From IMG/VR virus record IMGVR_UViG_2537561977_000021, positions 1 through 17,712 of that record: a DNA stretch of 17,712 nucleotides. One strand, given 5' to 3'. Positions 1,427 through 17,712 of this stretch are shown piece after piece. Within the stretch, counting starts at the first letter, position 1, and every line of letters starts with the position of its first letter. The notes beneath the pieces were generated by a model, which saw only the letters and a program-made list of their open reading frames with translations, did no database searches and had not been told where the DNA came from. Source of the stretch: a virus. Its lineage: Duplodnaviria; Heunggongvirae; Uroviricota; Caudoviricetes. The position numbers and the translations under genes are program-made.

Positions 1427-1705
1427 TTACCTCCAGATCCGTTGCTGGAATGTGCAGGACGGACGCGGTGGCCGTTCGGAATAAGGGAGCCTGACGAAGA
1501 TTATCCAGTGACGATAATCGAGACTGAGGGCTTTCTTAATCTCGTATCCGTGTCTGCGGTAGCGCTGAATCAGCCATTCAGCCTGTTCTTCGGTGCAGGG
1601 GTCGTGCTGATACCAGTCAGATTTGAATGCATGAGAACGCCGCCCGTGCCTGCTGGCAGGGGCGGCAGAGTTATCCGAATTGTAAAATTTGGTATCGTGC
1701 GCCAT
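1427..1705 (-). CDS. small prophage protein, Rem-like by position between hokD and ydfU
   Basis: 92-aa ORF with ATG at 1705-1703, lying between the hok terminator and the DUF968 gene. Identity rests on synteny only; RBS is weak. Confidence 0.5.
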   Translation of the reverse strand: MAHDTKFYNSDNSAAPASRHGRRSHAFKSDWYQHDPCTEEQAEWLIQRYRRHGYEIKKALSLDYRHWIIFVRLPYSERPPRPSCTFQQRIWR

Positions 1706-1783
1706 CTGTTTTCTCTGCTGGCGCAGCAGGTGCCAGTTGTTCAGGCTGACGGATGGATTGTAAACCAGAACGACCAGAAAAAC

Positions 1784-1803
1784 AAAACCCGCCGAAGCGG
1801 GTT
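1784..1803 (-). terminator. Rho-independent terminator, probable 3' end of hokD mRNA
   Basis: On the minus strand AACCCGC-TTCG-GCGGGTT (7-bp stem) is followed by TTTTGTTTTT, about 70 nt downstream of the hokD stop. Confidence 0.6.
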
Positions 1804-1871
1804 AAGTGCGGGTGCGTTGAGGATGCCTGACACATCAGCGGTGGCGAGGGATTTCTCCCCCGCCGGGTCTC

Positions 1872-2027
1872 TTACTCCTCAGGTTCGTAAGCTGTGAAGA
1901 CAGCGACCTCCGTCTGGCCGGTTCGGATTCGTACCTCGCAGAGGTCTTTCCTCGTTACCAGTGCCGTCACTATGACGGTTAAACAGATGACGATAAGGGC
2001 GATTAACATCGCCTTTTGCTGCTTCAT
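1872..2027 (-). CDS. hokD: Hok-family type I toxin HokD (RelF), 51 aa
   Basis: MKQQKAMLIALIVICLTVIVTALVTRKDLCEVRIRTGQTEVAVFTAYEPEE matches HokD as recalled. An in-frame upstream ATG at 2084 gives a mok-like leader ORF. The leader resembles the plasmid R1 hok mRNA leader (GGUGCUUGAGGC..., AGCCUCUUAC...CAAGGAGAAG). Confidence 0.9.
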   Translation of the reverse strand: MKQQKAMLIALIVICLTVIVTALVTRKDLCEVRIRTGQTEVAVFTAYEPEE

Positions 2028-2076
2028 AGCCTGCTTCTCCTTGCCTTTCGGCACGTAAGAGGCTAACCTACATGTG

Positions 2077-2161
2077 TTCAGCATGGATTGAGCCTCAGAT
2101 TAATGTTAAGCGTCTTGCAGGACGCGTAATGTTAACTGGGGCTTTTCTCTATCTGCCTTTT
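2077..2161 (+). ncRNA. putative Sok-like antisense RNA of the hokD locus
   Basis: Plus-strand promoter-like TTGCCT (2041-2046), 17-bp spacer, TAACCT (2064-2069). The transcript would be antisense to the mok start (2082-2084) and end near the T-run at 2158-2161. Placement is by analogy with hok/sok of R1; ends are approximate. Confidence 0.3.
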
Positions 2162-2203
2162 GGTGTTCATGCCTGAGACAGATAGCCTCAAGCACCCGCA
2201 GTC

Positions 2204-2231
2204 ATTCTACTTAACTAAGATTTCCCTGCAA
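2204..2231 (-). promoter_or_regulatory. putative hokD promoter (-35 TTGCAG, 16-bp spacer, -10 TAGAAT)
   Basis: On the minus strand TTGCAG (2231-2226) and TAGAAT (2209-2204) lie about 7 nt upstream of the GGTGCTTGAGGC leader start near 2196. It is intact, 46 bp from the IS600 left end. Confidence 0.4.
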
Positions 2232-2340
2232 ACCGTTTTTGTCCGGCACAGTAAATATCCAACTAAACCAATAGCGTGAGGTAGCCTGAGTTTAACGGAC
2301 ACTCCTTCCTGAAATAGAATGGCATCAGAAGGAGCTAATA

Positions 2341-2643
2341 ATGAGCAGAAAAACCCAACGTTACTCTAAAGAGTTCAAAGCCGAAGCTGTCAGAACGGTT
2401 CTTGAAAATCAACTTTCGATCAGTGAAGGCGCTTCCCGATTATCCCTTCCTGAAGGCACTTTAGGACAATGGGTTACCGCCGCCAGAAAAGGGCTCGGTA
2501 CTCCTGGTTCCCGCACGGTGGCTGAACTGGAATCTGAAATTCTGCAACTGCGTAAGGCGTTAAATGAAGCTCGCCTTGAGCGAGATATATTAAAAAAAGC
2601 AACAGCGTATTTTGCACAGGAGTCGCTGAAAAATACGCGTTAA
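2341..2643 (+). CDS. IS3-family (IS600) transposase OrfA, HTH DNA-binding
   Basis: 100-aa ORF MSRKTQRYSKEFKAEAV... with a leucine-zipper-like C-terminus. Slippery site A AAA AAA G at 2592-2599 near its 3' end. Confidence 0.85.
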   Translation: MSRKTQRYSKEFKAEAVRTVLENQLSISEGASRLSLPEGTLGQWVTAARKGLGTPGSRTVAELESEILQLRKALNEARLERDILKKATAYFAQESLKNTR

Positions 2644-2678
2644 TCGAACAATGGCGACAACAATTTCCCATTGAAGCG

Positions 2679-3497
2679 ATGTGTCAGGTATTTGGTGTAT
2701 CCAGGAGCGGTTATTACAACTGGGTACAGCATGAACCCTCAGACAGAAAACAAAGTGATGAGCGGCTAAAACTGGAGATTAAGGTGGCACATATCCGCAC
2801 TCGCGAAACATATGGAACCCGGCGGCTCCAGACGGAGCTGGCAGAGAATGGCATCATCGTTGGTCGTGACCGACTGGCACGTCTTCGTAAGGAGCTAAGG
2901 CTACGCTGTAAGCAGAAACGCAAGTTCAGAGCGACTACGAACTCGAACCACAATCTGCCAGTTGCGCCAAATCTGCTGAACCAGACGTTCGCTCCTACAG
3001 CACCAAATCAGGTCTGGGTGGCGGACCTGACGTATGTTGCCACACAGGAGGGATGGTTGTACCTCGCTGGCATCAAAGATGTTTATACGTGCGAAATTGT
3101 CGGCTACGCCATGGGAGAGCGCATGACAAAAGAGCTGACAGGTAAAGCCCTGTTTATGGCGCTCAGGAGCCAGCGCCCACCTGCCGGGCTAATCCACCAC
3201 TCTGATCGAGGTTCACAGTACTGCGCATACGATTACCGGGTCATACAGGAGCAGTTTGGTCTGAAAACATCAATGTCGCGTAAAGGTAACTGTTACGACA
3301 ACGCTCCGATGGAAAGCTTCTGGGGAACGCTGAAAAATGAGAGCCTGAGCCACTATCGTTTTAATAACCGGGATGAAGCCATCTCAGTAATACGGGAATA
3401 CATTGAGATTTTCTACAATCGTCAGCGTCGTCACTCTCGTCTGGGGAATATCTCCCCGGCAGCCTTCAGGGAAAAATATCATCAGATGGCTGCTTAA
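2679..3497 (+). CDS. IS3-family (IS600) transposase OrfB, DDE catalytic domain; made as an OrfAB fusion by -1 frameshift
   Basis: 272 aa from the first ATG. The frame is open upstream to the slippery site (reads ...KYALIEQWRQQFPIEAMCQVFGVSRSGYY). DDE integrase-core motifs present (WVADLTY, HSDRGSQY, YDNAPMESFWGTLK). Confidence 0.85.
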   Translation: MCQVFGVSRSGYYNWVQHEPSDRKQSDERLKLEIKVAHIRTRETYGTRRLQTELAENGIIVGRDRLARLRKELRLRCKQKRKFRATTNSNHNLPVAPNLLNQTFAPTAPNQVWVADLTYVATQEGWLYLAGIKDVYTCEIVGYAMGERMTKELTGKALFMALRSQRPPAGLIHHSDRGSQYCAYDYRVIQEQFGLKTSMSRKGNCYDNAPMESFWGTLKNESLSHYRFNNRDEAISVIREYIEIFYNRQRRHSRLGNISPAAFREKYHQMAA

Positions 3498-3553
3498 AAA
3501 AAGAACAAATGGTAGTGTCCGCTATTGCCAGTACACCTCAGCGTTCGCTGTAT

Positions 3554-3733
3554 TTACCGCCAGTATTCAATGCACATGACCGCCATGAACACCCCTAAAA
3601 AAAGGGCATTTATATGTCCAAACATTAATATCAAAACATCAATTTTTTCCATATACCTTGCTGTGAAGATGATGGGCATACATGATGCGAACAACCAGAA
3701 CGCAACAAACAAAAACTGCAATGCGTTTTTCAT
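3554..3733 (-). CDS. small hydrophobic protein (59 aa, about two predicted TM helices), hypothetical
   Basis: ATG at 3733 is preceded by GTAGGGGGAATA (strong SD, about 4-nt spacing). Product MKNALQFLFVAFWLFASCMPIIFTARYMEKIDVLILMFGHINALFLGVFMAVMCIEYWR. AT-rich context; stop is 14 bp from the IS600 right end. Confidence 0.35.
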   Translation of the reverse strand: MKNALQFLFVAFWLFASCMPIIFTARYMEKIDVLILMFGHINALFLGVFMAVMCIEYWR

Positions 3734-3945
3734 TATTCCCCCTACAATCAATGTGCAATAACATTTAAACACACCTCAATTTGGCCGGACATATAAATAT
3801 CTAAACCAGAAAAAATCACTTACATAGCGTTACAAACTCTTTAGTCTAAATACTCATCGTAAAACATTCCCCATACTTATCAGTCCGTTCCGCGCCAGGT
3901 AGCTTATTGCCTTATCTGGCAACCTATAATCAGGTTTCCGCTTTT

Positions 3946-4368
3946 TCAGTTGGCTGGTCGTTTAACCGACATAGTTAACCCATTAATCTGGTTGCCGGAT
4001 GCTGGTGGATTTTCGCGTTTTAGTTGTTCATAAAAGTGCACAGCTTTAACCAGTTCTTCTGATGTAACCGGGACTGGTGGGGCAGTGAATAAGGCCTGAA
4101 TTTCATAGTTCGGCCTGTCGTTACAATCCTCTTTTTTCGGTACATATTTCCAGTCACCAACCCACAACTCCCCCTGAGAGTCCATAACACCTTTTTTCAC
4201 GTAGCGATATCGCCACGCTATCGGCTCTGCTTCCAGCGATGCCCGTGCAATTTTGAATAACTCGCCCTCTACTCGCGCCATCCCTGAATTGGGGTGGCAT
4301 TTCGTAATCGCTATTTTTAATTTGGCTTCTTCGATTAATTGTTCTTTTGTTAATTCAGTCATTTTCAT
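3946..4368 (-). CDS. hypothetical prophage protein (nin-region), 140 aa
   Basis: ORF with ATG at 4368 or 4362. Position and N-terminal charged helix suggest an Ead/Ea22-like protein, unconfirmed. A hairpin CCGCC-CTTTCA-GGCGG lies just upstream. Confidence 0.55.
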   Translation of the reverse strand: MKMTELTKEQLIEEAKLKIAITKCHPNSGMARVEGELFKIARASLEAEPIAWRYRYVKKGVMDSQGELWVGDWKYVPKKEDCNDRPNYEIQALFTAPPVPVTSEELVKAVHFYEQLKRENPPASGNQINGLTMSVKRPAN

Positions 4369-4458
4369 TACCGCCCTTTCAGGCGGCCTCCTGATGTTCT
4401 GAGGGTGCAGAAATCCCTCCGGTTAAGGATTAAATTTTATTTGCTGTGCTAAATTTAA

Positions 4459-4914
4459 TTATTCAGTTTTTATTCCTGCTCTCAAAACAGCCTCTGCCAT
4501 TCTGATATCCGGATTTTCTGAAATCATCTTTTCCGGCGAGTCGCAATCACCACCACATTCAGTTATGCGTTCATGACCAAAACGAATTGTGGTTTTGTGC
4601 GCATTAATCATTTGTGTAAGCGCATCTGTCAATTCTGCAATGCGTTTGTCTTTAACTTCCAGCTCTTTCAGTAAAGCCAGTACGTCAGGATCGCTAACAT
4701 CAACGACGGTTACGCGCGATTTCAGGTAATGCTCATCCGCAAAAGTTCGACCAGTTTTAAAATATCCATCATCCCCCTCACCTGTGCAGGCATACACAAT
4801 ATGCGTTCTGGAAAATATGCGCTGTATCGACATTTCATCGCCACAAACAGGACATTCCGGCACCTGAATTGGTGAATAACGTTCACGTAATGCCTGGTAA
4901 TTAGTCTTGCACAC
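4459..4914 (-). CDS. hypothetical prophage protein with CxxC zinc-ribbon-like motifs, 151 aa
   Basis: GTG start at 4914 preceded by AGGAG (7-nt spacing). CPVCG and ECGGDCD motifs plus a coiled-coil-like segment. Overlaps the upstream gene by 14 nt (operon). Confidence 0.55.
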   Translation of the reverse strand: MCKTNYQALRERYSPIQVPECPVCGDEMSIQRIFSRTHIVYACTGEGDDGYFKTGRTFADEHYLKSRVTVVDVSDPDVLALLKELEVKDKRIAELTDALTQMINAHKTTIRFGHERITECGGDCDSPEKMISENPDIRMAEAVLRAGIKTE

Positions 4915-5206
4915 TGGCTGTCTCCTGAAAAATCACCGCATGCCCCAGTTTCTCCGCCAGCGCCAGTTCTGCCTTAGCGCCTGCTGACCGCTGCCAGCCT
5001 TTCAGCATGTAAATCGCATCCACACAACGAATCATCGCCATGCAGATATCCATGTACTGCGGCTGTGTCAGCCCGTCCGGAAGTACTGCCGGGTTTAAGA
5101 CGGTATGCCCTTCCCGTTTCAGTTCCTCTTCCGCATTGTGAAACGCCTCACGGTTGAAATTTTTATACCCGGTCATTGGACCGGCGATATAGACTCTCAC
5201 CCTCAC
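4901..5206 (-). CDS. DUF4406 family protein (nucleoside 2-deoxyribosyltransferase-like fold)
   Basis: 101 aa starting MRVRVYIAGPMTGY...NREAFHNAEEELKREGHTVLNP, typical of DUF4406 as recalled. GTG start overlaps the upstream stop (GTGA) with AGGAGG 7 nt upstream. Confidence 0.7.
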   Translation of the reverse strand: MRVRVYIAGPMTGYKNFNREAFHNAEEELKREGHTVLNPAVLPDGLTQPQYMDICMAMIRCVDAIYMLKGWQRSAGAKAELALAEKLGHAVIFQETASVQD

Positions 5207-5664
5207 GCCATCACCTCCTGAAAATTACCCTGATAAAACGACAATATGCGCTGCATAACTTCGCTCTTCCGGCACTCGCGACAGATTATGTTTAGGCGAC
5301 TGTCGTAGCGACGTATTTCTCCGTCAGGTAATGACCAGATAAGGTCCGGATCAACCGCAGATGGTTTCTTCAGCTTTGCCCTTGAGAGCTTTTTACGGGC
5401 ATTTTGCCAGTCCTTACGCGCCTGTTCAGACGGGAATAACCCGTAACCAGAGTTGTATACATCGCCACTGGCAACCAGCTCTCTGGCCAGAACGCTCATC
5501 AGATATCTTGTTGCCCCAGTTTTAGCTTCCAGTTGTCGTAACGTCTCGCGCCCACTCTGGCGTACGAGTTCAAGAACCTGCCCTTTAATTTTTCCCGCTC
5601 TTCTTGTGTAAAAACTTTTGCCACAAGCCCTCCTGAAAATTACCTCATGACCAGAAATTAACAC
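5203..5664 (-). CDS. hypothetical prophage protein, possible winged-helix DNA-binding, 153 aa
   Basis: ORF translationally coupled to the replication gene (stop TAA 5667-5665, GTG 5664, AGGGGG SD). Function unknown. Confidence 0.5.
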   Translation of the reverse strand: MLISGHEVIFRRACGKSFYTRRAGKIKGQVLELVRQSGRETLRQLEAKTGATRYLMSVLARELVASGDVYNSGYGLFPSEQARKDWQNARKKLSRAKLKKPSAVDPDLIWSLPDGEIRRYDSRLNIICRECRKSEVMQRILSFYQGNFQEVMA

Positions 5665-6606
5665 TTACCCCCTGAAGCCCGGCGGAATTTCGTTATCCGG
5701 TTCAGAAATATGATTCACACAACGCTGGTTGTTCGTGCCGCTTACCGGGAGCAACCAGGGGTTCTCAAAATTCCGGTCCGGTCCAAAAAACGTCGTCGCT
5801 CGCTGAACAAATTCCGTTCCCGTTTTCCCGGTAGCCGCCAGGTATCTTGCGTAACGCCTCACGCCATCCAGCATGGCCTCTGGTGGCACCCCCTCGCGTA
5901 ATCTGGCCTTCCAGGCACTGAAAGCGGATTTCTTCGGGTTTGCCCCGGCACGCAACGGGTACTCCCGCCAGACCTGTTCGAACACATCCGGATAATCCAC
6001 TCGTCCCACAGACTGCCCGGTTTTTTCCGGGACTACCCGATCGGCTTCCCGCTGAATGGCGGAATCGGCTTCAGGCTGCTGCAGTTGGTGTGATTGCTCC
6101 GGCCTTGCGGTCATCACCTGCTGCACAGCGCCCGAATCGGCTTTCAGCGCATACGCTGAATCGGCTTCCGGTGTCGTGCCTGCTGGCTGACCAGGATTGA
6201 CGGTCTGAACATCCCCTGCCTGGTTCGTGGCGATTTTTTCGCCATGAACCATAGTGTTTTTGTCCTGTTCCTGTTCTTTCTCCTGTTCCTGTTCTTGGCT
6301 TCGAAGCCCCTTTAAAGCCCCTTCGAAGCCCCTTACCGTATTTCGGTTGTTATTTCGCCTTACATCCAGATGAAAATCCGTCTTATATCTGTCATAAAAC
6401 GCTGAAAGAAAAGCGTTTTCAGGTAATGACGCATATTCACTCCTGACACCTGCACAACGGTTATCGCCAGGCTTTAACTTTCCCCCAACCTGCCAGGCTG
6501 CCATTTCATGGACCCAGACCATCTCGGAATCATGGTCATAACTGCAAAAACCCACTTCGACAGCCCTTCGAAGCCCCTTCCGGACCAAGCCCGGTTTCAT
6601 GAGCAA
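5665..6606 (-). CDS. phage replication protein, C-terminal portion (phage conserved C-terminal domain, Phg_2220_C-like)
   Basis: 313-aa ORF. C-terminus DVFEQVWREYPLRAGANPKKSAFSAWKARL...YARYLAATGKTG...FFGPDRNFENPW matches the conserved replication-protein C-terminal domain as recalled. Contains an EQEQEKEQEQ linker and the iterons. Frame differs from the N-terminal piece. Confidence 0.6.
   Translation of the reverse strand: MLMKPGLVRKGLRRAVEVGFCSYDHDSEMVWVHEMAAWQVGGKLKPGDNRCAGVRSEYASLPENAFLSAFYDRYKTDFHLDVRRNNNRNTVRGFEGALKGLRSQEQEQEKEQEQDKNTMVHGEKIATNQAGDVQTVNPGQPAGTTPEADSAYALKADSGAVQQVMTARPEQSHQLQQPEADSAIQREADRVVPEKTGQSVGRVDYPDVFEQVWREYPLRAGANPKKSAFSAWKARLREGVPPEAMLDGVRRYARYLAATGKTGTEFVQRATTFFGPDRNFENPWLLPVSGTNNQRCVNHISEPDNEIPPGFRG
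6299..6333. repeat. three tandem 11-bp iteron-like repeats (TTCGAAGCCCC / TTTAAAGCCCC / TTCGAAGCCCC) inside the replication gene
   Basis: Direct tandem repeats read directly from the sequence. A second cluster (TTCGACAGCCC, TTCGAAGCCCC) lies at 6556-6577. Confidence 0.7.
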
Positions 6607-6763
6607 GGTACAAAACCGGCAGGTAATACAGGCCCAGCATGTTTGCGTGAGGGGATGTCATCAGGTAAAAAGCAACCACCTGCGCTTCTGCGCCTGCCTT
6701 TCTGAGTTCTTTCCCCGTTTCTCCCAGCCAGAATCGCGGGGAAACTTTTGCGTAATCACGCAT
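6536..6763 (-). CDS. phage replication protein, N-terminal fragment (separated from downstream part by frameshift)
   Basis: ATG at 6763 preceded by GAGGTGG (about 4-nt spacing). N-terminus MRDYAKVSPRFWLGETGKELRKAG...VVAFYLMTSP is typical of replisome-organizer N-terminal domains. Ends at a TGA inside the second iteron cluster; the +1 frame continues as the 313-aa ORF. Confidence 0.5.
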   Translation of the reverse strand: MRDYAKVSPRFWLGETGKELRKAGAEAQVVAFYLMTSPHANMLGLYYLPVLYLAHETGLGPEGASKGCRSGFLQL

Positions 6764-6984
6764 GTCCACCTCATCTGGTGCCGAACCTTCCTCCGGATAT
6801 AATCTGTGATTCCCCAATCAACAGAACCAGAGGAGGTTCGACATGTCTTTTTTGAAAAGCCTTTATCGGGCTCATATATTAAAAGTTGCAGCAACAAATC
6901 ACTGGCAAGAAGGAACAGATGAAATGTTGCCGGATTACCGGGCATGGCTGCGCGCCGAAACATACCTTCGTCTCGATATGCTGA

Positions 6985-7494
6985 TTAACGATCTTCAAAA
7001 AGAGGCTCCATCCACTCAAACCCTTCAGGGTGTCGGCGCTGTTCGCGTTCTGGTATCTCGCCATAACGCTCTCTCAGTAACTGAAGTGCGTCAGCTTTCT
7101 TTTGCTGAACTGATTTTCTTGCTTCAGCCAGCTCTGGAATCAGTGAATATCCCATCGGAGGTGTTCCGGTATCCGCCCCACGTGAACCAACAGCTACAAG
7201 CTGCACAAGACAACAGGCATGCTGGATTGACTCCCTGCTCAGAGGCTGAATGGGATCATTCTCTGCTGAAGAGATACCAAGATTTGTATAATCCTCAATA
7301 AGCCGGGCGCACGCTTCAGCATCAGCCAGTTTTTTTCTGGTTTCCTTGCGCTGTTCTCTGACGGACAAACGCCAGAGCAGCGCATTGGCTTTATGCATCA
7401 GCCACTCTGCCAGTTCCACATCAGATAAACCGCCACGCCAGATGTGTGGACTGTTTTCGTAAACGCTCAGTGTCAGTTTTTTGTCATTGGTCAT
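6985..7494 (-). CDS. hypothetical early-operon protein, 169 aa
   Basis: ATG at 7494 lies 13 nt after the YdaT-like stop, in the same direction as the cro operon. First-codon-position G enrichment favours this strand. An antisense plus-strand ORF (6843-7301) with a strong RBS overlaps it, so the call is uncertain. Confidence 0.4.
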   Translation of the reverse strand: MTNDKKLTLSVYENSPHIWRGGLSDVELAEWLMHKANALLWRLSVREQRKETRKKLADAEACARLIEDYTNLGISSAENDPIQPLSRESIQHACCLVQLVAVGSRGADTGTPPMGYSLIPELAEARKSVQQKKADALQLLRERYGEIPEREQRRHPEGFEWMEPLFEDR

Positions 7495-7507
7495 ATTTAT
7501 TGCCCCG

Positions 7508-7933
7508 TCAATGCACAGCCAGAGTATTTCCTGCCGGACCACCACGATTCATCTGATCGAACAGAACAATCGCTGATGCAACGAAATCATCGATATCTTT
7601 CACCAGCTGTTCCTGCGTCTCCAGCAGTTCCCGAAAATAAACTGAACTGTGGCTGCGCATTCGGGCCACCAGCGGAGGCGGCATTGCCTTTTCGATCGCT
7701 GGTAACAACGCCTGAATTTTTTTAACAGCATCAGGGGTGTCTTTCTCTATCCAGCGGAAAATTTTCTGGGTATTGCGAGCCAGGGCTTCCGGATGGCTGT
7801 CGTCGTACAGTTCAGGGAACGTCATCCCCAGTTCGAAATAAGTCCGGGCTATCTCAGCCGCCGGAACTTTCTCACCATCAGGATATGCCCATGCATTCAT
7901 CGCCATACGGATGTGCTCATGCTTGATTTTCAT
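7508..7933 (-). CDS. YdaT-like (CII-like) prophage regulatory protein
   Basis: 141 aa starting MKIKHEHIRMAMNAW.... ATGA overlap with the upstream Cro-like gene. Family assignment from recalled YdaT features. Confidence 0.65.
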   Translation of the reverse strand: MKIKHEHIRMAMNAWAYPDGEKVPAAEIARTYFELGMTFPELYDDSHPEALARNTQKIFRWIEKDTPDAVKKIQALLPAIEKAMPPPLVARMRSHSSVYFRELLETQEQLVKDIDDFVASAIVLFDQMNRGGPAGNTLAVH

Positions 7934-8193
7934 GAATCACCCCCCGCCGATGGTTGTGTGTTAGCCTGAAACTCAGCAGGCAAGCCGTCAGTTGGGTTGG
8001 GGTAGGTTTTACTGTCAATCTCATGTGGGGTCACCACCCATCCCGTTGCTTCACACCAACGTAATATTTTTTCTCCTGTAAGTTTTGCACGCCCCGTTAT
8101 AACGTGGCTGACCATCCCCTGGGATGCGCCAACAATCTCAGCAAATGAACTCTGGGTTATATGAAAATGATGCAAATATTCTCCAAGATTCAT
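7930..8193 (-). CDS. YdaS/Cro-like HTH transcriptional regulator (lytic-side repressor)
   Basis: ATG at 8193 preceded by AGGGCGG; product MNLGEYLHHFHITQSSFAEIVGASQGMVSHVITGRAKLTGEKILRW... has an HTH. Divergent from the repressor gene across an operator-bearing intergenic region. The ORF-track start at 8220 is TTG. Confidence 0.75.
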   Translation of the reverse strand: MNLGEYLHHFHITQSSFAEIVGASQGMVSHVITGRAKLTGEKILRWCEATGWVVTPHEIDSKTYPNPTDGLPAEFQANTQPSAGGDS

Positions 8194-8229
8194 AATCCGC
8201 CCTATGTGATGTGTTACCAACGCATAATT

Positions 8230-8270
8230 AATAGCACTGTTATTTTTAAAAGTAAATAGCGATGCTATTT
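8230..8270. promoter_or_regulatory. OR-like operator region: two palindromic sites AATAGC-N3-GYTATT between divergent cro-like and repressor genes
   Basis: Site A AATAGCACTGTTATT (8230-8244); site B AAATAGCGATGCTATTT (8254-8270, perfect 7-bp half-sites). Candidate promoter elements overlap on both strands. Confidence 0.6.
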
Positions 8271-8304
8271 CAAAGTGATTAGCAATCTTATTAGAATTGG
8301 ATGT

Positions 8305-8805
8305 ATGAAAAGAAAATCACTGTCAGACACCGACCTCAACGCCGCCAGAAGACTGAAAGAAATCTGGATGGCAAAGAAATCTCAGTTGGGATTGACTCAG
8401 GAACGTGCGGCGGAAATTATGGGGTTTTCAACACAAGGGGCGGTAAGTCACTACCTAAATGGTCAAACCCCACTAAACCTTGAGGCTGTTCTAAAGTTTG
8501 CTGGCTTACTGAAAGTTCCCCCTGAGTCAATCAGGCCAGACATGGCAGATTTGCTGCAAATTGCAAGGATGTATTGTCGAGAACCACAGCAAGATAACAT
8601 AGTCGCATTACCAGCAGACACAGAACAAACAGAGGATGAACTACCGTTTGCCGTAGAGCCGATGGAACGAGATTTAATCCATACGTTCAGAGCTTTTCCG
8701 AAAGAAGATCAAGAACACATGCTTCAGGAGATGAAAGATAAAAAAGAATCAATGGATCGTACGGTTGCGCGGTGGTTAGCTGCACAAAAAGGCCGTCGCG
8801 CCTAA
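8305..8805 (+). CDS. CI-like prophage repressor / PaaR-like HTH (XRE family) regulator
   Basis: HTH LGLTQERAAEIMGFSTQGAVSHYLNG. Divergent from the cro-like gene and followed by the paaA-parE-like pair. ATG at 8305 (MKRKSL...) lies just downstream of TAGAAT at 8292-8297, so the mRNA may be leaderless; the alternative ATG at 8275 is not excluded. Confidence 0.7.
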   Translation: MKRKSLSDTDLNAARRLKEIWMAKKSQLGLTQERAAEIMGFSTQGAVSHYLNGQTPLNLEAVLKFAGLLKVPPESIRPDMADLLQIARMYCREPQQDNIVALPADTEQTEDELPFAVEPMERDLIHTFRAFPKEDQEHMLQEMKDKKESMDRTVARWLAAQKGRRA

Positions 8806-8824
8806 ATCAGAGGAGATATGTAAA

Positions 8825-9019
8825 ATGAGTACAGTCCTTTCCCCAATGGTTTCAGAATTTGAGACAGTTGAGCAAGAAAATAGTTACAACGAATGGCTGC
8901 GGGCCAAAGTAGCAGCAAGCCTCGCGGATCCCCGCCCGGCGATTCCGCATGATGAGGTAATGGCGGAAATGGAACAAATTATTGCCCAAATTGCTGCTGC
9001 AACTCACAGAGGTGAATAA
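8825..9019 (+). CDS. type II antitoxin, PaaA-like (ParE-associated antitoxin)
   Basis: 64 aa with GAGGAG 8 nt upstream. Sequence ...SPMVSEFETVEQENSYNEWLRAKVAASLADPRPAIPHDEV... resembles PaaA2-type antitoxins as recalled. Stop overlaps the toxin start (TAATG). Confidence 0.75.
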   Translation: MSTVLSPMVSEFETVEQENSYNEWLRAKVAASLADPRPAIPHDEVMAEMEQIIAQIAAATHRGE

Positions 9020-9309
9020 TGTTACCCGTTTTATGGCTACCATCTGCTCGTGATGATTTGCGCCAGATCGTAGCCTACATAGCTAAAGAAAATCCCGCGG
9101 CAGCACGCAGAATGAAAATTCGAATTGAAACATCCGTTTTGCCGCTCACAGAGCATCCTTACCTGTATCCTCCAAGCGAGCGAGTTCTTGGTCTTCGTGA
9201 AATTGTAACTCATCCTAACTACATCATCCTTTACCGAGTAACAGCATCAAGCATAGAAGTAGTAAATATTGTGCATTCTCGAAGACAGTATCCAGGCAAA
9301 AACAGTTAA
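9019..9309 (+). CDS. parE: ParE/RelE-family type II toxin
   Basis: 96 aa with hallmark RelE/ParE motifs (WLPSARDDLRQIVAYIAKENPAAARRM..., YIILYRV..IEVVNIVHSRR). Translationally coupled to the antitoxin. Confidence 0.85.
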   Translation: MLPVLWLPSARDDLRQIVAYIAKENPAAARRMKIRIETSVLPLTEHPYLYPPSERVLGLREIVTHPNYIILYRVTASSIEVVNIVHSRRQYPGKNS

Positions 9310-9325
9310 TTATTCCCGCCGACAG

Positions 9326-9348
9326 AACCACCTTAGGGTGGTTTTTTC
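9326..9348 (+). terminator. Rho-independent terminator ending the repressor-antitoxin-toxin operon
   Basis: AACCACC-TTAG-GGTGGTT followed by TTTTTTC. Confidence 0.7.
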
Positions 9349-9363
9349 TTGCTCCAACAAAAA

Positions 9364-9403
9364 CAATAGCGATGCTATTTACACCAAAAATAATGATGCT
9401 ATT
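9364..9403. promoter_or_regulatory. OL-like operator region: two further copies of the AATAGC-N3-GCTATT operator motif
   Basis: Site C CAATAGCGATGCTATTT (near-identical to site B) and site D AATAATGATGCTATT. They lie about 1.1 kb from the OR-like pair and upstream of the rightward early genes. Confidence 0.6.
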
Positions 9404-9582
9404 GTTTCAGGCGTCAACCCACCCCGCCCCACAGAATGCAGGGCAATACTTCGAGTTACCAGACAGTGGTCAGGGGTTAAGTAGCCAGCCCGAGGCGTAA
9501 GAACATGACGGCAGGGTTCAACTTTAACTATGCAGCAGGTTTTTGTTCCGCTCCCCCGGCGTTAAGGGGAAATGAGGTCAGC

Positions 9583-11025: not shown

Positions 11026-12319
11026 CTGAGGGATCCCCAGAAAATTTAGTAAACCATTATCATATTGGTATACCGTTGCTGTAGAACTTTCAGCCCTGCG
11101 TCAAGTGACAGTGTGTTTAGTATGAGTGGAGAATGTCGAATCACATTCTCCGCCAGTTTTAATAACGAGATGACTCGCCTGTGCTTCACTGTATTTGCCT
11201 GATATTTATGATGTATCCCTTTGTTTTCCAGGCTGAAACCGCTTAACCACATAATGATACTGGCTAATGTTGCGATCAGACTCAATACCGTGACCCGCCC
11301 GGATGAATGACTGGCACCAAACCGTAGTCCAAATCCCCAGCGAGGATTTTTTTCATCCCTGAAATTTTGCTCAATTTGCATTCTACGGCTGTATAATTTC
11401 ATTACCTGTTTTGGCGAGAACTCAGTACTGTTTGTGAAAATAAACCATGGTGATTTCCCGGCAGTACGAGCTTTAGCCGTCACCGATGGTCTGGTTGCTC
11501 TTTCCTTCGAGCGTTTAAATCTACGACCTTTAGGCTTACTTTTATAAAGATAAAAATGCCCTTCATGTTGTGCATTTTTATCTCGACCCAGCAGGCCTTC
11601 ACCTAAATAAATTGCTGTCGTTGATGCTTTTGTGCCTGAGTCCGACACCTTTTCCCAGCCATTACCAACATTGTAATAATGATTGCCCAGTACCCGGCAA
11701 ATATAGGTCCAGCCACGGGAGCGGAGCTGTTGGAACCATCGCCCCTGAAAACCGGCATCTGTAATAACAATGACATCAGTCCCGGGGGAAAAGCACTCAG
11801 CAAGCGATTCCAGAAAACGCTCATGTACATCTGCATTCGCTGTCTGTGATGATGGAACGACACAACTCATCAACGGTAAAGAACGCCCGTCACATGCCAG
11901 GCTTGCCCGCAAAAGCTGAAAACGAGAGGCATGATAAGCACTCTAGTCAATGAGTATCACAACACGAGACATTCCCCGCGTAATCTTTTGGGTAATTCGC
12001 TGAAAAATGGTGGAAACCTCATTTTGCAAATGTCGATTCCCCAACAGTCGATCCACCCGCTTTATTTTGTTTTTAACTGATGCCGTACCGGTTAAATGAC
12101 GCCCGATACTGGTAAGTGTGAGGGAAGCGCCATTTATTACAGCATTAGTTGCGTCAATCAGTGATTTTTGACGGTAAAGATGCAAAGGGGCCAGTATGTT
12201 GTTAAGGAAATTTTGGCATAATGAACGTGCAGGCATAGTGGTGATCTCCTTGAAATTGTTAGCACAATCAATTAGATCACATCTCACTATGCCTGTCTTG
12301 TTTTCTGGGGATTCCTCAG
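11026..12319 (-). mobile_element. IS10-like insertion sequence (IS4 family), about 1294 bp, transposase inactivated
   Basis: Terminal inverted repeats CTGAGGGATCCCCAGAAAA (left) and TTTTCTGGGGATTCCTCAG (right). Flanking direct repeat GGGTTATCCT (11016-11025 and 12320-12329), consistent with a 9-bp target duplication; boundaries uncertain by 1 bp. Confidence 0.8.
11046..12236 (-). pseudogene. IS10-like transposase interrupted by an in-frame amber (TAG) codon
   Basis: The ORFs 11943-12347 and 11046-11912 are in the same frame, separated by TAG at 11945-11943. N-terminal motif KNKIKRVDRLLGNRHL and the C-terminal part align with IS10 transposase as recalled; the TAG sits where IS10 has Trp (TGG). 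Likely start is ATG at 12236 (MPARSL...). Confidence 0.75.
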
Positions 12320-12407
12320 GGGTTATCCTTACCCCCACAGGTAGCACCGGGTTGTCAGGTTGACCATACGCCCGAGTGACAACCCCGCCACAACATCTCC
12401 ATGTTGA

Positions 12408-12637: not shown

Positions 12638-12766
12638 CTGTGATGAAAGGTGAGAGAAAATGTTGAATGTAGCTATTGAAAACCAGAACGGGTGGAATTA
12701 TAGTGCACCTGCACCTCATAAAACGGGTGCCGGGATTGGCCTCCTGTTAATCACATTGGTGCCTGA

Positions 12767-12791
12767 ACACGCACCAAAAGCGTGTTTTTTG
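12767..12791 (+). terminator. Rho-independent terminator (ACACGC-ACCAAAA-GCGTGT + T6)
   Basis: Hairpin plus TTTTTT read directly. It lies inside the long ORF-track frame 12660-13508, arguing that Rha starts downstream. Confidence 0.55.
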
Positions 12792-12950
12792 TTGCCTGCA
12801 TTTCATCATTCAATGGCAGCTCAGGCGGGAGCTTCTCACGAAGCGCCGGGTTCCGATGTGACCGGTAAGGCCAATCCCGTCTGGGCTACCACCAATCGGA
12901 TTGGCCTCTGCGGTGGTGGCAGTACTGCTTTCACATCGGAGGATGCCGTT

Positions 12951-16484: not shown

Positions 16485-16688
16485 ATGAGCAGCTTATTTT
16501 TAACCGAAGATGAATTGCTAATATTAACGGGCTGCAAATATGCAAGCCACCAGCGAAAATGGTTAATGGAAAACGGGCTTCCGTTCTATACCAATCGTAG
16601 TGGCAAACCGATTGTCAGCCGGGATCTATTTACCTGCAATAAAACTTTACCACCACGCGAGGTAGAGCCGAATTTTGGTGCGATCTGA
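16485..16688 (+). CDS. excisionase-like protein (DUF4224-like) upstream of integrase
   Basis: 67 aa starting MSSLFLTEDELLILTGCKYASHQRKWLMENGLPFYTNRSGKPIV..., typical of DUF4224 excisionase-like proteins as recalled. Stop overlaps the int start (TGATG). Confidence 0.65.
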   Translation: MSSLFLTEDELLILTGCKYASHQRKWLMENGLPFYTNRSGKPIVSRDLFTCNKTLPPREVEPNFGAI

Positions 16689-17712
16689 TGGGAAGACGAA
16701 GGAAAAATCCTGAACACGAAAAATTACCTCCAAATGTATACCCAAATAAATATAGTTATGTATGGAAACCAACATCCAGAGAATCTGTCACACTAACCGC
16801 CATCAAGGATGGTTTAGCTGCTTTATGGAAAAAGTATGAGGAAACTGTAAATAATCGCGATCGTGCAATGACATTCGGTCGCTTGTGGGAAAAATTCCTC
16901 GCCAGCGCCTATTACAGTGACCTTAGTCCAAGAACACAAAAAGATTATCTGCAACATCAAAAAAAGTTGCTTGCCGTATTCGGTAAGGTACCAGCGGATT
17001 CCATAAAACCAGAACACATCCGTCGATACATGGACAAAAGAGGGGAGCAGAGTAAAACGCAAGCCAACCATGAAAAAAGCAGTATGTCCCGTGTTTACAG
17101 TTGGGGGTATGAGCGAGGGTACGTGAAGGCTAACCCATGTGCAGGTGTAAGTAAATTCAAGGCCAAAAACCGCGAACGATATGTAACCGACAAAGAATAC
17201 CAGGCAGTATTAAGCGTTGCACCTCTTCCTGTTTTTATCGCAATGGAAATTGCCTATCTGTGTGCAGCGAGGGTTTCCGATGTGTTATCGCTGAAATGGG
17301 AACAGATTGGAAACGACGGGATATTCATCCAGCAAGGGAAAACCGGAAAAAACAGATAAAAGCATGGAGTCCACGATTACAGGCAGCGATCGAAAAAGCA
17401 AAACAGTTACCAAAATCTGCCTATGTGATCAGCAATCAATACGGCAACCGATATATGTACAAAGGCTTTAACGAAATGTGGGTAGATGCAAGAAATCGTG
17501 CTGGAAAAATTTCAGGTATTTTAACCGACTTCACCTTTCATGATCTGAAGGCGAAAGGAATTTCAGACTATGAAGGAAGCAGCCGGGATAAGCAACTTTT
17601 CTCTGGTCACAAAACCGAAGGGCAAGTGCTAATCTATGACAGGAAGGTTAAAGTTTCACCAACACTTGATGTCCCGTTACCTGAAAATATTCCAAGAAAA
17701 TATTCCAAGTAA
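16688..17712 (+). pseudogene. lambda-family tyrosine integrase, disrupted by a frameshift in an A6 tract
   Basis: The N-terminal ORF 16688-17359 (MGRRRKNPEHEKLPPNVY...GKTGKNR*) and C-terminal ORF 17260-17712 (...FHDLKAKG...GHKTEGQVLIYDRK, catalytic His/Tyr region) lie in adjacent frames that switch at AAAAAA 17347-17352. An A7 would give the continuous ...GKTGKKQIKAWSP.... Confidence 0.8.

What the first reader, a model, noticed from the sequence alone, without database searches (positions are those of the whole stretch)
1784..2276. Apparently intact hok/sok-type locus (hokD) with IS600 inserted 46 bp upstream of its promoter
hokD, its mok-like leader ORF, a leader resembling plasmid R1 hok mRNA, a 3' terminator and a plausible antisense promoter are all present. 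Chromosomal hok loci are often inactivated by IS elements, but here IS600 leaves the -35/-10 intact. The relBE genes that precede hokD in K-12 Qin (as recalled) are absent and IS600 occupies that position.
Basis: partly seen in the sequence, partly recalled or inferred. Interest (0 to 1): 0.5.

Follow-up and report, generated by a model that had tools for sequence, protein, structure and literature searches.

The report
Intact prophage hokD/sok toxin-antitoxin locus
This is an ordinary, apparently intact copy of a well-known small toxin/antisense-RNA "addiction" module (hokD, the same kind as hokW-sokW of Shiga-toxin phages) carried by a lambda-like prophage, with a copy of the mobile element IS600 inserted harmlessly just outside it.

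Summary
The minus strand of window 1780-2232 carries a complete hok/sok-type type I toxin-antitoxin module: promoter, 170-nt leader, mok-like start, hokD, a 3' fold-back element and a terminator. The convergent Sok gene lies on the plus strand. Rfam's sok model matches at 118.9 bits (threshold 59). The regulatory core (1996-2157) differs at one loop base from hokW-sokW of phage 933W/Sp5, which has been shown experimentally to be a working type I TA. IS600 (2277-3540) is a simple insertion with a 3-bp duplication (GCG), 80 bp upstream of the hok transcript start. It lies outside the block conserved among prophage lineages (about -50 onwards) and deletes nothing.

IS-free alleles have no relBE upstream of hokD. 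K-12 Qin is the rearranged allele, with homology beginning only 17 nt before the hok ATG. A leader of this type occurs in 4271 of 5426 complete E. coli genomes, and the K-12-type junction in 1201. The mok-like ORF is an in-frame extension of hok, as annotated for mokW and mokC.

Verdict: a known element with a private, probably neutral IS600 insertion. Low interest.

The parts
2204..2232 (-). hok promoter (-35 TTTGCA/TTGCAG, -10 TAGAAT)
   Evidence: Found by the consensus scan. The -10 TAGAAT is kept in all of the most frequent promoter variants among 111 related loci, and the -35 is conserved as TTTGC/TTGGC.
1780..2197 (-). Full-length hokD mRNA, about 414-418 nt, from +1 (G at 2197) to the terminator T-run
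   Evidence: The 5' end is set by position 1 of the Rfam model. The minimum-free-energy fold is -173 kcal/mol, z = -8.4 against shuffles. The transcript itself is inferred and was not measured.
2186..2197 (-). tac (translational activator) element GGGUGCUUGAGG at the mRNA 5' end
   Evidence: Invariant in 67 distinct alleles. It pairs with the 3' fbi element in the single-sequence fold and in the alignment fold.
2028..2197 (-). hok mRNA leader (tac, ucb, Sok target hairpin, mok start region, hok Shine-Dalgarno)
   Evidence: Full-length match to Rfam RF01794 at 118.9 bits. Identical to 933W hokW from 2157 downwards except for position 2119.
1872..2084 (-). mok-like ORF: 70 codons, i.e. 19 leader codons in frame with hokD
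   Evidence: ORF list. The product is the same as the annotated MokW up to residue 63; the two differ only in the last 7 residues. The start is in frame in 88 of 103 related loci. GAGG lies 8 nt upstream of the AUG (read from the sequence).
1872..2027 (-). hokD toxin gene (51 aa, single hydrophobic helix)
   Evidence: Pfam HOK_GEF 1.2e-23. Annotated as hokD in RefSeq relatives.
2041..2069 (+). Sok promoter (TTGCCT, 17 nt spacer, TAACCT)
   Evidence: Read from the sequence; it falls below the scan threshold (3 of 6 in the -10). It is identical to the sokW promoter region of 933W/Sp5. Mutating the sokW promoter sequence (nucleotides around the -10 element) in Sp5 abolished antitoxin activity (PMC8621323). 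The -35 and the key -10 positions are invariant in 67 alleles.
2076..2146 (+). Sok antisense RNA (71 nt): 14-nt 5' tail covering the mok AUG, plus a terminator hairpin
   Evidence: 70 of 71 nt identical to the annotated sokW of 933W. Fold. sokW RNA was detected by Northern blot in Sp5 lysogens (PMC8621323).
1843..1864 (-). 3' UTR hairpin GGCGGGGGAGAAAUCCCUCGCC, the presumed stop point of 3' trimming
   Evidence: Predicted, with compensatory changes at two of its pairs. Its role is inferred by analogy with R1 hok mRNA.
1810..1822 (-). fbi (fold-back inhibition) element CCUCAACGCACCC, complementary to tac
   Evidence: The 12-pair 5'-3' closing stem is kept in 67 of 67 alleles, with only G-U changes.
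1776..1803 (-). Intrinsic terminator of hok mRNA
   Evidence: Terminator scan. Conserved in most related loci.
2277..3540 (+). IS600 (IS3 family; orfA 2341-2643, orfB 2679-3497), transcribed away from hokD
   Evidence: 100% identical over 1264 bp to annotated IS600 copies. Pfam and NCBIfam identify an IS3 transposase.
2274..2276 (.). Target-site duplication GCG, left copy (right copy at 3541-3543)
   Evidence: The empty site ...GAACGCTATTGG... is seen in IS-free alleles L001 and L002. Colinearity on both sides of the IS.

Best explanation
Window 1776-2232 is an intact hokD/sok module. It is a hok/sok-family type I toxin-antitoxin system of the hokW-sokW kind, carried between the nin-like genes and the DUF968-RusA(-Q) genes of a lambdoid prophage.

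Proposed mechanism (the parts are shown by sequence; the steps are inferred by homology with R1 hok/sok and Sp5 hokW-sokW):
1. A constitutive promoter makes a ~415-nt hok mRNA. Its 5' tac element is locked to the 3' fbi element, so the full-length RNA is neither translated nor bound by Sok.
2. Slow 3' trimming back to a stable hairpin releases tac. The leader refolds and exposes the mok start and the Sok target.
3. The short-lived 71-nt Sok RNA is made from the convergent promoter. Its 5' tail pairs across the mok AUG, blocking mok and hence the coupled hok translation, and marks the duplex for RNase III.
4. When Sok supply stops (loss of the element, a transcription block, or prophage induction), HokD is made, inserts in the inner membrane and kills or lyses the cell.

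IS600 is a later, strain-specific simple insertion 80 bp upstream of the hok transcript start, outside the conserved module. It most likely has no effect on hok/sok. Its more plausible effect is polarity on read-through from the prophage early-right operon towards hok and Q.
For: - Rfam sok model: full-length match at 118.9 bits.
- HOK_GEF domain in the toxin.
- hok promoter and terminator.
- The 5'-3' tac/fbi stem appears in the minimum-free-energy fold, z = -8.4. It is kept in 67 of 67 distinct alleles, and 6 pairs elsewhere show compensatory changes.
- Sok has the expected tail-plus-hairpin architecture and is 70/71 identical to the annotated sokW. The whole core 1996-2157 is identical to 933W apart from one loop base.
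- Primers and probes published for sokW and hokW match the window exactly, and that locus was shown to be a working TA, with Sok detected by Northern blot and sokW-promoter dependence demonstrated (PMC8621323).
- The window copy equals the IS-free allele of FDAARGOS_944 across the module, apart from one T in the terminator T-run.
- IS600 has a 3-bp target duplication, and the empty site is seen elsewhere.
- Conservation among prophage lineages stops 10-50 nt upstream of +1 in most loci, whereas the IS is at -80.
- No promoter-like site reads out of IS600 towards hok.
Against: - No expression data exist for this strain.
- The Sok -10 (TAACCT) matches only 3 of 6 consensus positions and was missed by the generic scan.
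- As recalled from Pedersen & Gerdes 1999, and as summarised in bioRxiv 10.1101/2025.08.07.668861, the chromosomal hok loci tested (hokA, hokB, hokC) did not give post-segregational killing. An 'intact' sequence therefore does not prove a phenotype.
- The mok hairpin shows only one-sided (wobble) changes, with no double compensatory changes in my alignment register.
- An effect of IS600 on upstream read-through or local supercoiling cannot be excluded.
Confidence: 0.85

Rival explanations
1. The module is sequence-intact but physiologically silent. It would be a remnant carried along with a decaying prophage, making too little hok mRNA or toxin to kill, as reported for several chromosomal hok loci.
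For: - Chromosomal hokA, hokB and hokC did not mediate post-segregational killing or rifampicin activation (summarised in bioRxiv 10.1101/2025.08.07.668861).
- The host prophage looks degraded: IS600 here, a second IS at about 11.0-12.35 kb, and an integrase split into two ORFs.
- The relatives also carry frameshifted Q and terminase genes.
Against: - The regulatory core is identical to a hokW-sokW locus that is demonstrably active in Sp5 lysogens (PMC8621323).
- tac, fbi, both promoters and the hok reading frame are conserved across 67 distinct alleles, with compensatory changes. That points to continuing selection on the family.
Confidence: 0.25
2. IS600 changes how the module behaves. It might insulate hok/sok from hok-sense read-through transcription coming from the prophage early-right operon, uncoupling HokD release from prophage induction. 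Alternatively it might alter promoter strength through lost upstream DNA or through transcription out of the IS.
For: - All genes from the cro-like gene at 8220 down to RusA at 1 are on the minus strand, so early-right transcripts would pass through hok in the sense direction and collide with Sok transcription.
- In Sp5, Sok disappears and HokW appears on RecA-dependent induction.
- A 1.26-kb IS with three weak terminator-like sites on that strand now lies in between.
Against: - The IS lies outside the block conserved among lineages.
- No outward promoter-like site was found.
- The terminator-like sites inside IS600 are no more numerous than in shuffled sequence: 3 against 1.6 +/- 1.4.
- In 933W the same module sits in a different genomic context, so it does not depend on this upstream neighbourhood.
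Confidence: 0.12
3. The locus is a rearranged relBE-hokD operon of the K-12 type in which IS600 replaced relBE.
For: HokD is identical in protein sequence to K-12 HokD, and the DNA is nearly identical from 17 nt before the ATG to the terminator.
Against: - The IS has a clean 3-bp duplication, and the empty site exists in other genomes without relBE.
- The window has the full leader that K-12 lacks.
- 103 of 106 related viral contigs have the full leader, and only 3 (K-12 itself plus two viral contigs) have the relE junction.
- No relB or relE homologue is present in the window.
Confidence: 0.01

Closest known systems
hokW-mokW-sokW of Stx2 phages 933W / Sakai prophage 5 (Plunkett 1999 annotation AF125520; Takada et al. 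2021, PMC8621323)
   Same: - 93% DNA identity over the locus.
- The core 1996-2157 is identical except for one loop base, and Sok is 70/71 identical.
- Same Sok promoter and same 19-residue Mok leader peptide in frame with the toxin.
- Both are carried on lambdoid prophages.
   Different: - The toxin's C-terminus differs: TAYEPEE here against VDYESEK in HokW.
- The hok promoter spacer and the first stem of the leader carry a few substitutions.
- 933W lacks the AACCCGCTTCGGCGGG terminator and has other 3' flanking DNA.
- The position in the phage genome differs: nin/Q region here, near the right end in 933W.
hokD (relF) of E. coli K-12 cryptic prophage Qin
   Same: Identical HokD protein. The DNA is nearly identical from the hok Shine-Dalgarno through the 3' UTR, fbi and terminator.
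   Different: K-12 has relB-relE fused 17 nt upstream of the hok ATG and lacks the hok promoter, tac, mok start, Sok target and Sok gene. That junction occurs in 1201 of 5426 genomes, whereas a leader of the window's type occurs in 4271 of 5426.
hok/sok (parB) of plasmid R1, the founding member
   Same: Same set of parts in the same order: promoter, tac, ucb, target hairpin, mok, hok, 3' hairpin, fbi and a convergent Sok with a 5' tail and terminator hairpin. The Rfam family is shared. An R1-type locus was read for comparison.
   Different: - HokW, which is identical to HokD up to its last 7 residues, shares 44% protein identity with R1 Hok (PMC8621323).
- The leader is alignable only through the covariance model.
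- As I recall it, mok is out of frame in R1 but in frame here.
- The carrier is a prophage, not a plasmid.
IS-disrupted hokC (gef)/sokC, hokA and hokE of K-12
   Same: A chromosomal hok locus with an IS element within 100 bp.
   Different: In K-12, IS186A ends 19 nt after the hokC stop and removes the fbi/terminator region (PMC3562002). Here IS600 is on the 5' side, 80 nt upstream of +1, and removes nothing.

Membership tests
[quoted passage not shown] | Small hydrophobic Hok/Gef toxin ORF (about 50 aa) | tested here: met
   Pfam HOK_GEF 82.9 bits against a cutoff of 22. NCBIfam Hok-family models match only below their cutoffs, at 48.5 and 40.2 bits against cutoffs of 73 and 89. RefSeq relatives are annotated as hokD.
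[quoted passage not shown] | Structured hok mRNA leader matching the family covariance model | tested here: met
   RF01794, model positions 1-157 of 157, 118.9 bits against a gathering score of 59.
[quoted passage not shown] | mok reading frame that starts in the leader, has its own Shine-Dalgarno, and runs into hok (translational coupling) | tested here: met
   The ATG at 2084 has GAGG 8 nt upstream. The 70-codon ORF is in frame with hok, like the annotated mokW and mokC. Coupling itself was not tested.
[quoted passage not shown] | Cis-encoded antisense Sok RNA with its own promoter, a single-stranded 5' tail over the mok start, and a terminator hairpin | tested here: met
   2076-2146 (+) is 70/71 identical to the annotated sokW. 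Fold. The promoter is identical to that of the experimentally validated sokW (PMC8621323). The transcript was not measured in this strain.
[quoted passage not shown] | Long-range 5' tac to 3' fbi pairing in the full-length mRNA | tested here: met
   The 12-pair closing stem is present in the minimum-free-energy fold and kept in 67 of 67 alleles. Both arms are nearly invariant, so conservation supports it but covariation does not.
[quoted passage not shown] | Alternative tac-ucb pairing and target hairpin in the 3'-processed mRNA | tested here: inconclusive
   The Rfam consensus structure, which is the refolded form, is satisfied with few non-canonical pairs. The mok hairpin is paired in 89% of cells against 30-63% in the slid controls, but without double compensatory changes. 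A plain minimum-free-energy fold of the truncated RNA gives a different 5' hairpin.
[quoted passage not shown] | 3' processing, RNase III cleavage of the duplex, and killing when Sok decays | not testable with these tools
   Needs Northern blots, a rifampicin chase and viability assays. Shown only for homologues (R1; Sp5 hokW-sokW, PMC8621323).
K-12-type relBE-hokD (relBEF) operon | relB and relE immediately upstream of hokD, with hokD lacking its own leader | tested here: not met
   No relB or relE DNA or protein match in the window. The full leader is present.
IS600 (IS3 family) | 1264-bp element with orfA/orfB, terminal inverted repeats and a 3-bp target duplication | tested here: met
   100% identity to annotated IS600. 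IS3 transposase models match. The GCG duplication and the empty site are seen.

The most novel reading that the evidence does not exclude
IS600 could act as an insulator that uncouples HokD activation from prophage induction. It would block hok-sense read-through from the early-right operon, which in IS-free alleles would collide with Sok transcription. If so, the position of the IS would have converted a lysis-assisting phage module into a pure addiction module that helps retain a dead prophage.
Probability: 0.08. Interest if true: 0.35.

Novelty: already known. Interest (0 to 1): 0.1.

Why it matters
It matters little. The locus adds one more copy to a module found in most E. coli genomes and already characterised in Stx phages.

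There are two small useful points:
- K-12's relBE-hokD arrangement, often taken as the reference, is the rearranged allele. Prophage hokD normally carries a complete hok/sok apparatus.
- An IS near a hok locus is not by itself evidence of inactivation. What counts is the side and distance of the insertion relative to tac, fbi and Sok.

Tried and rejected
- I searched for K-12 relBE in the window by blastn and tblastn and found nothing. This rejects the 'simple rearrangement' idea.
- I searched for the IS600-hokD junction in 5426 complete E. coli genomes, GTDB species representatives and IMG/VR. There was no match, so the insertion is private to this lineage. I could not name the organism beyond assembly GCA_000188815.2, contig ADUP01000037.1.
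- I looked for a promoter reading out of IS600 towards hok and found none. The terminator-like sites inside the IS are not above chance.
- I tested the mok/target hairpin for covariation. It shows only wobble changes, so the support is weak.
- I considered that the in-frame mok might be unusual. I rejected this because mokW (933W), mokC (K-12) and 88 of 103 related loci are in frame.
- The generic promoter scan did not pick up the Sok promoter. I accept it on the basis of its identity to the experimentally mutated sokW promoter, not on consensus strength.

Full report
**What is there**

Reading the window shows that the finding lies on the minus strand.
- The 51-codon ORF at 2027-1872 encodes MKQQKAMLIALIVICLTVIVTALVTRKDLCEVRIRTGQTEVAVFTAYEPEE. 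It matches Pfam HOK_GEF at 82.9 bits and is annotated as hokD in near-identical RefSeq loci.
- An upstream ATG at 2084 opens a 70-codon ORF that is simply hokD with 19 extra N-terminal codons. The 'mok-like' frame is therefore in frame with hok.
- Rfam's sok family (RF01794) matches 2197-2022 over its whole length at 118.9 bits, with a gathering score of 59 and E = 5e-27. The strand, and the terminal AUG of the model, show that this model describes the hok mRNA leader.
- The consensus scan finds TTTGCA-17-TAGAAT at 2232-2204 on the minus strand, and an intrinsic terminator at 1803-1786 followed by a T-run.

**RNA architecture**

The predicted full-length transcript (2197 to about 1780) folds to -173 kcal/mol, z = -8.4 against dinucleotide shuffles. 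Its 5' end, GGGUGCUUGAGG, pairs with CCUCAACGCACCC at 1822-1810. These are the tac and fbi elements that define the inert full-length hok mRNA of plasmid R1 (established knowledge from the Gerdes laboratory).

On the plus strand, TTGCCT-17-TAACCT (2041-2069) precedes a 71-nt RNA (2076-2146). That RNA has a 14-nt unstructured 5' tail, GUUCAGCAUGGAUU, which is complementary to the mok AUG region. The tail is followed by a -30 kcal/mol hairpin and a U-run. This is the canonical Sok design.

**Relatives**

A 35-nt probe from the hok start recovered 120 IMG/VR prophage contigs.
- Of 106 usable loci, 103 carry the full GGGTGCTTGAGG leader. Only three (K-12 itself and two viral contigs) have the K-12-type relE-hokD junction.
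- In an alignment of 67 distinct mRNAs, tac, the hok Shine-Dalgarno and start, the Sok -35 and the key positions of the Sok -10 are invariant.
- RNAalifold keeps the 12-pair 5'-3' stem in 67 of 67 sequences and finds 6 pairs with compensatory double changes elsewhere.
- The hairpin around the mok start is the most variable part. It stays paired in 89% of cells, against 30-63% when the partners are slid, but only through wobble changes.
- The mok start is in frame in 88 of 103 loci. In 11 it opens a 19-codon ORF ending at an ATGA overlap with hok, and in 3 it is out of frame. Translation through the region, rather than the Mok peptide, therefore seems to be what is conserved.

**Link to an experimentally studied system**

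The locus is 93% identical to hokW-mokW-sokW of phage 933W and of the VT2-Sakai/Sp5 prophage.
- The 933W record annotates sokW as a 71-nt antisense RNA, and mokW as a 70-codon ORF sharing its stop with hokW.
- Position by position, window 1996-2157 is identical to 933W except for one base (2119) in the loop of the Sok terminator hairpin. This stretch covers the Sok gene, its promoter, the mok start region and the hok start. Sok is 70/71 identical.
- Takada et al. 2021 (PMC8621323) showed that hokW-sokW of Sp5 is a functional type I TA. HokW is toxic. sokW expressed from its own promoter neutralises it, and mutating the sokW promoter sequence abolishes that. sokW is seen on Northern blots and disappears after mitomycin C in a RecA-dependent way, while HokW appears in the inner membrane. 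Deleting the locus halves phage release.
- Their oligonucleotides YO-422, YO-592 and YO-597 occur verbatim in the window (one search compared).

This is the strongest available evidence that the antisense promoter and RNA here are real, although nothing has been measured in this strain.

**The IS600 insertion**

- 2277-3540 is 100% identical to annotated IS600 copies and encodes IS3-family OrfA and OrfB.
- GCG is duplicated at both ends (2274-2276 and 3541-3543).
- With the IS removed, the window is colinear with the prophage of E. coli FDAARGOS_944: 1-2277 at 99.87% and 3540-9530 at 99.55%. The empty site is visible there and in O104:H4.
- The IS lies 80 nt upstream of the hok +1 and 44-45 nt from the -35 hexamer.
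- Among 111 related loci, similarity to the reference upstream sequence ends 10-50 nt upstream of +1 in most, which reflects mosaic prophage boundaries. The IS is therefore outside the conserved module.
- The IS is transcribed away from hok. No promoter-like site reads out of it towards hok, and its terminator-like sites are at chance level.
- None of 5426 complete E. coli genomes, no GTDB species representative and no IMG/VR contig has this junction. The window comes from NCBI assembly GCA_000188815.2.

**The relBE question**

In K-12 Qin the order is relB-relE-hokD-rem-ydfU.
- Homology with the window begins only 17 nt before the hok ATG. K-12 therefore lacks the promoter, tac, mok start and Sok. 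It is the rearranged allele, as Pedersen and Gerdes concluded in 1999 (recalled, not re-read).
- The K-12-type junction is present in 1201 of 5426 genomes. A leader of the window's type is present in 4271 of 5426, often in several copies.
- The window has no relB or relE homologue.
- The ParE-family toxin and PaaA2-type antitoxin at 8825-9309, next to an HTH regulator, form a different system. It resembles the PaaR2-PaaA2-ParE2 arrangement of O157, as I recall it.

**Comparison with IS-inactivated hok loci**

[quoted passage not shown] That is the 3' side. The IS600 here is on the 5' side and beyond the promoter, so the analogy does not apply.

**Mechanism and function**

The parts are shown by sequence and homology. 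The steps are inferred from R1 and Sp5: an inert full-length RNA, 3' trimming, refolding, Sok binding across mok, RNase III cleavage, and HokD synthesis when Sok is lost.

Plausible biological roles in this context are retention of the prophage region, help with lysis on induction (as in Sp5), or abortive infection (reported for R1 hok/sok against T4, cited in PMC8621323). The prophage itself looks degraded, with two IS elements and a split integrase. A silent relic therefore cannot be excluded.

**Verdict**

The relBE/IS600 replacement idea is wrong. The element is a known, very common prophage module carrying a private and probably neutral IS600 insertion. Interest is low.

Noticed in passing
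window 12711-12896 (+): Rfam finds isrK (62.6 bits) followed directly by a C4 antisense RNA (71.3 bits). They lie inside or just upstream of a 282-aa ORF with a Phage_pRha (anti-repressor-like) domain. This looks like a P1/P7-type c4-ant immunity module within the same prophage.
   Followed up: no
window 8275-9309 (+): An HTH regulator (176 aa), a PaaA2-type antitoxin (64 aa, PF21217) and a ParE-family toxin (96 aa) sit in a row. This is a three-component type II TA resembling PaaR2-PaaA2-ParE2 of O157 prophages. RefSeq labels the pair RelB/RelE family, but K-12 RelB and RelE show no detectable similarity.
   Followed up: partly
window 11046-12347 (-): A second insertion element lies in the early-left region. 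It has a DDE_Tnp_1 (IS4-family) transposase that appears split into 134-aa and 288-aa ORFs.
   Followed up: no
window 16688-17712 (+): The phage integrase appears split into two overlapping ORFs (16688-17359 and 17260 to the end). This suggests a frameshift and a defective prophage.
   Followed up: no
window 3554-3772 (-): A 72-aa, very hydrophobic ORF ends 13 nt from the right end of IS600. It has no Pfam match, and no gene is annotated at the corresponding position in FDAARGOS_944 (L001); O104:H4 (L002) has a frameshifted pseudogene nearby. It may be an unannotated small membrane protein gene just upstream of the hok module.
   Followed up: partly
window 1886-1889 (-), hokD codon Tyr47: The Tyr47 codon sits in UACG, the TadA A-to-I editing motif, and is invariant in 67 alleles. 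A preprint states that hokC, hokD and hokE mRNAs undergo Tyr-to-Cys recoding at this position, as hokB does at codon 29 (bioRxiv 10.1101/2025.08.07.668861).
   Followed up: partly
related loci L006-L125, leader region corresponding to window 2060-2095: The mok reading frame is not fixed within this one hok subfamily: 88 loci are in frame, 11 have a 19-codon ORF ending in an ATGA overlap, and 3 are out of frame. The changes arise from small indels in the hypervariable hairpin, which also carries the Sok -10 on the other strand.
   Followed up: partly
phage record PP818812.1 (hit H72): A phage deposited as infecting Actinobacillus pleuropneumoniae carries this E. coli-type hok locus at 96% DNA identity. 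That is unexpected for a Pasteurellaceae phage and may reflect host misassignment or contamination.
   Followed up: no
window 1427-1705 (-): A conserved 92-aa ORF with no Pfam match always follows hokD in the close relatives (WP_000929754 / WP_001341382). K-12 has the unrelated rem gene at that position.
   Followed up: no
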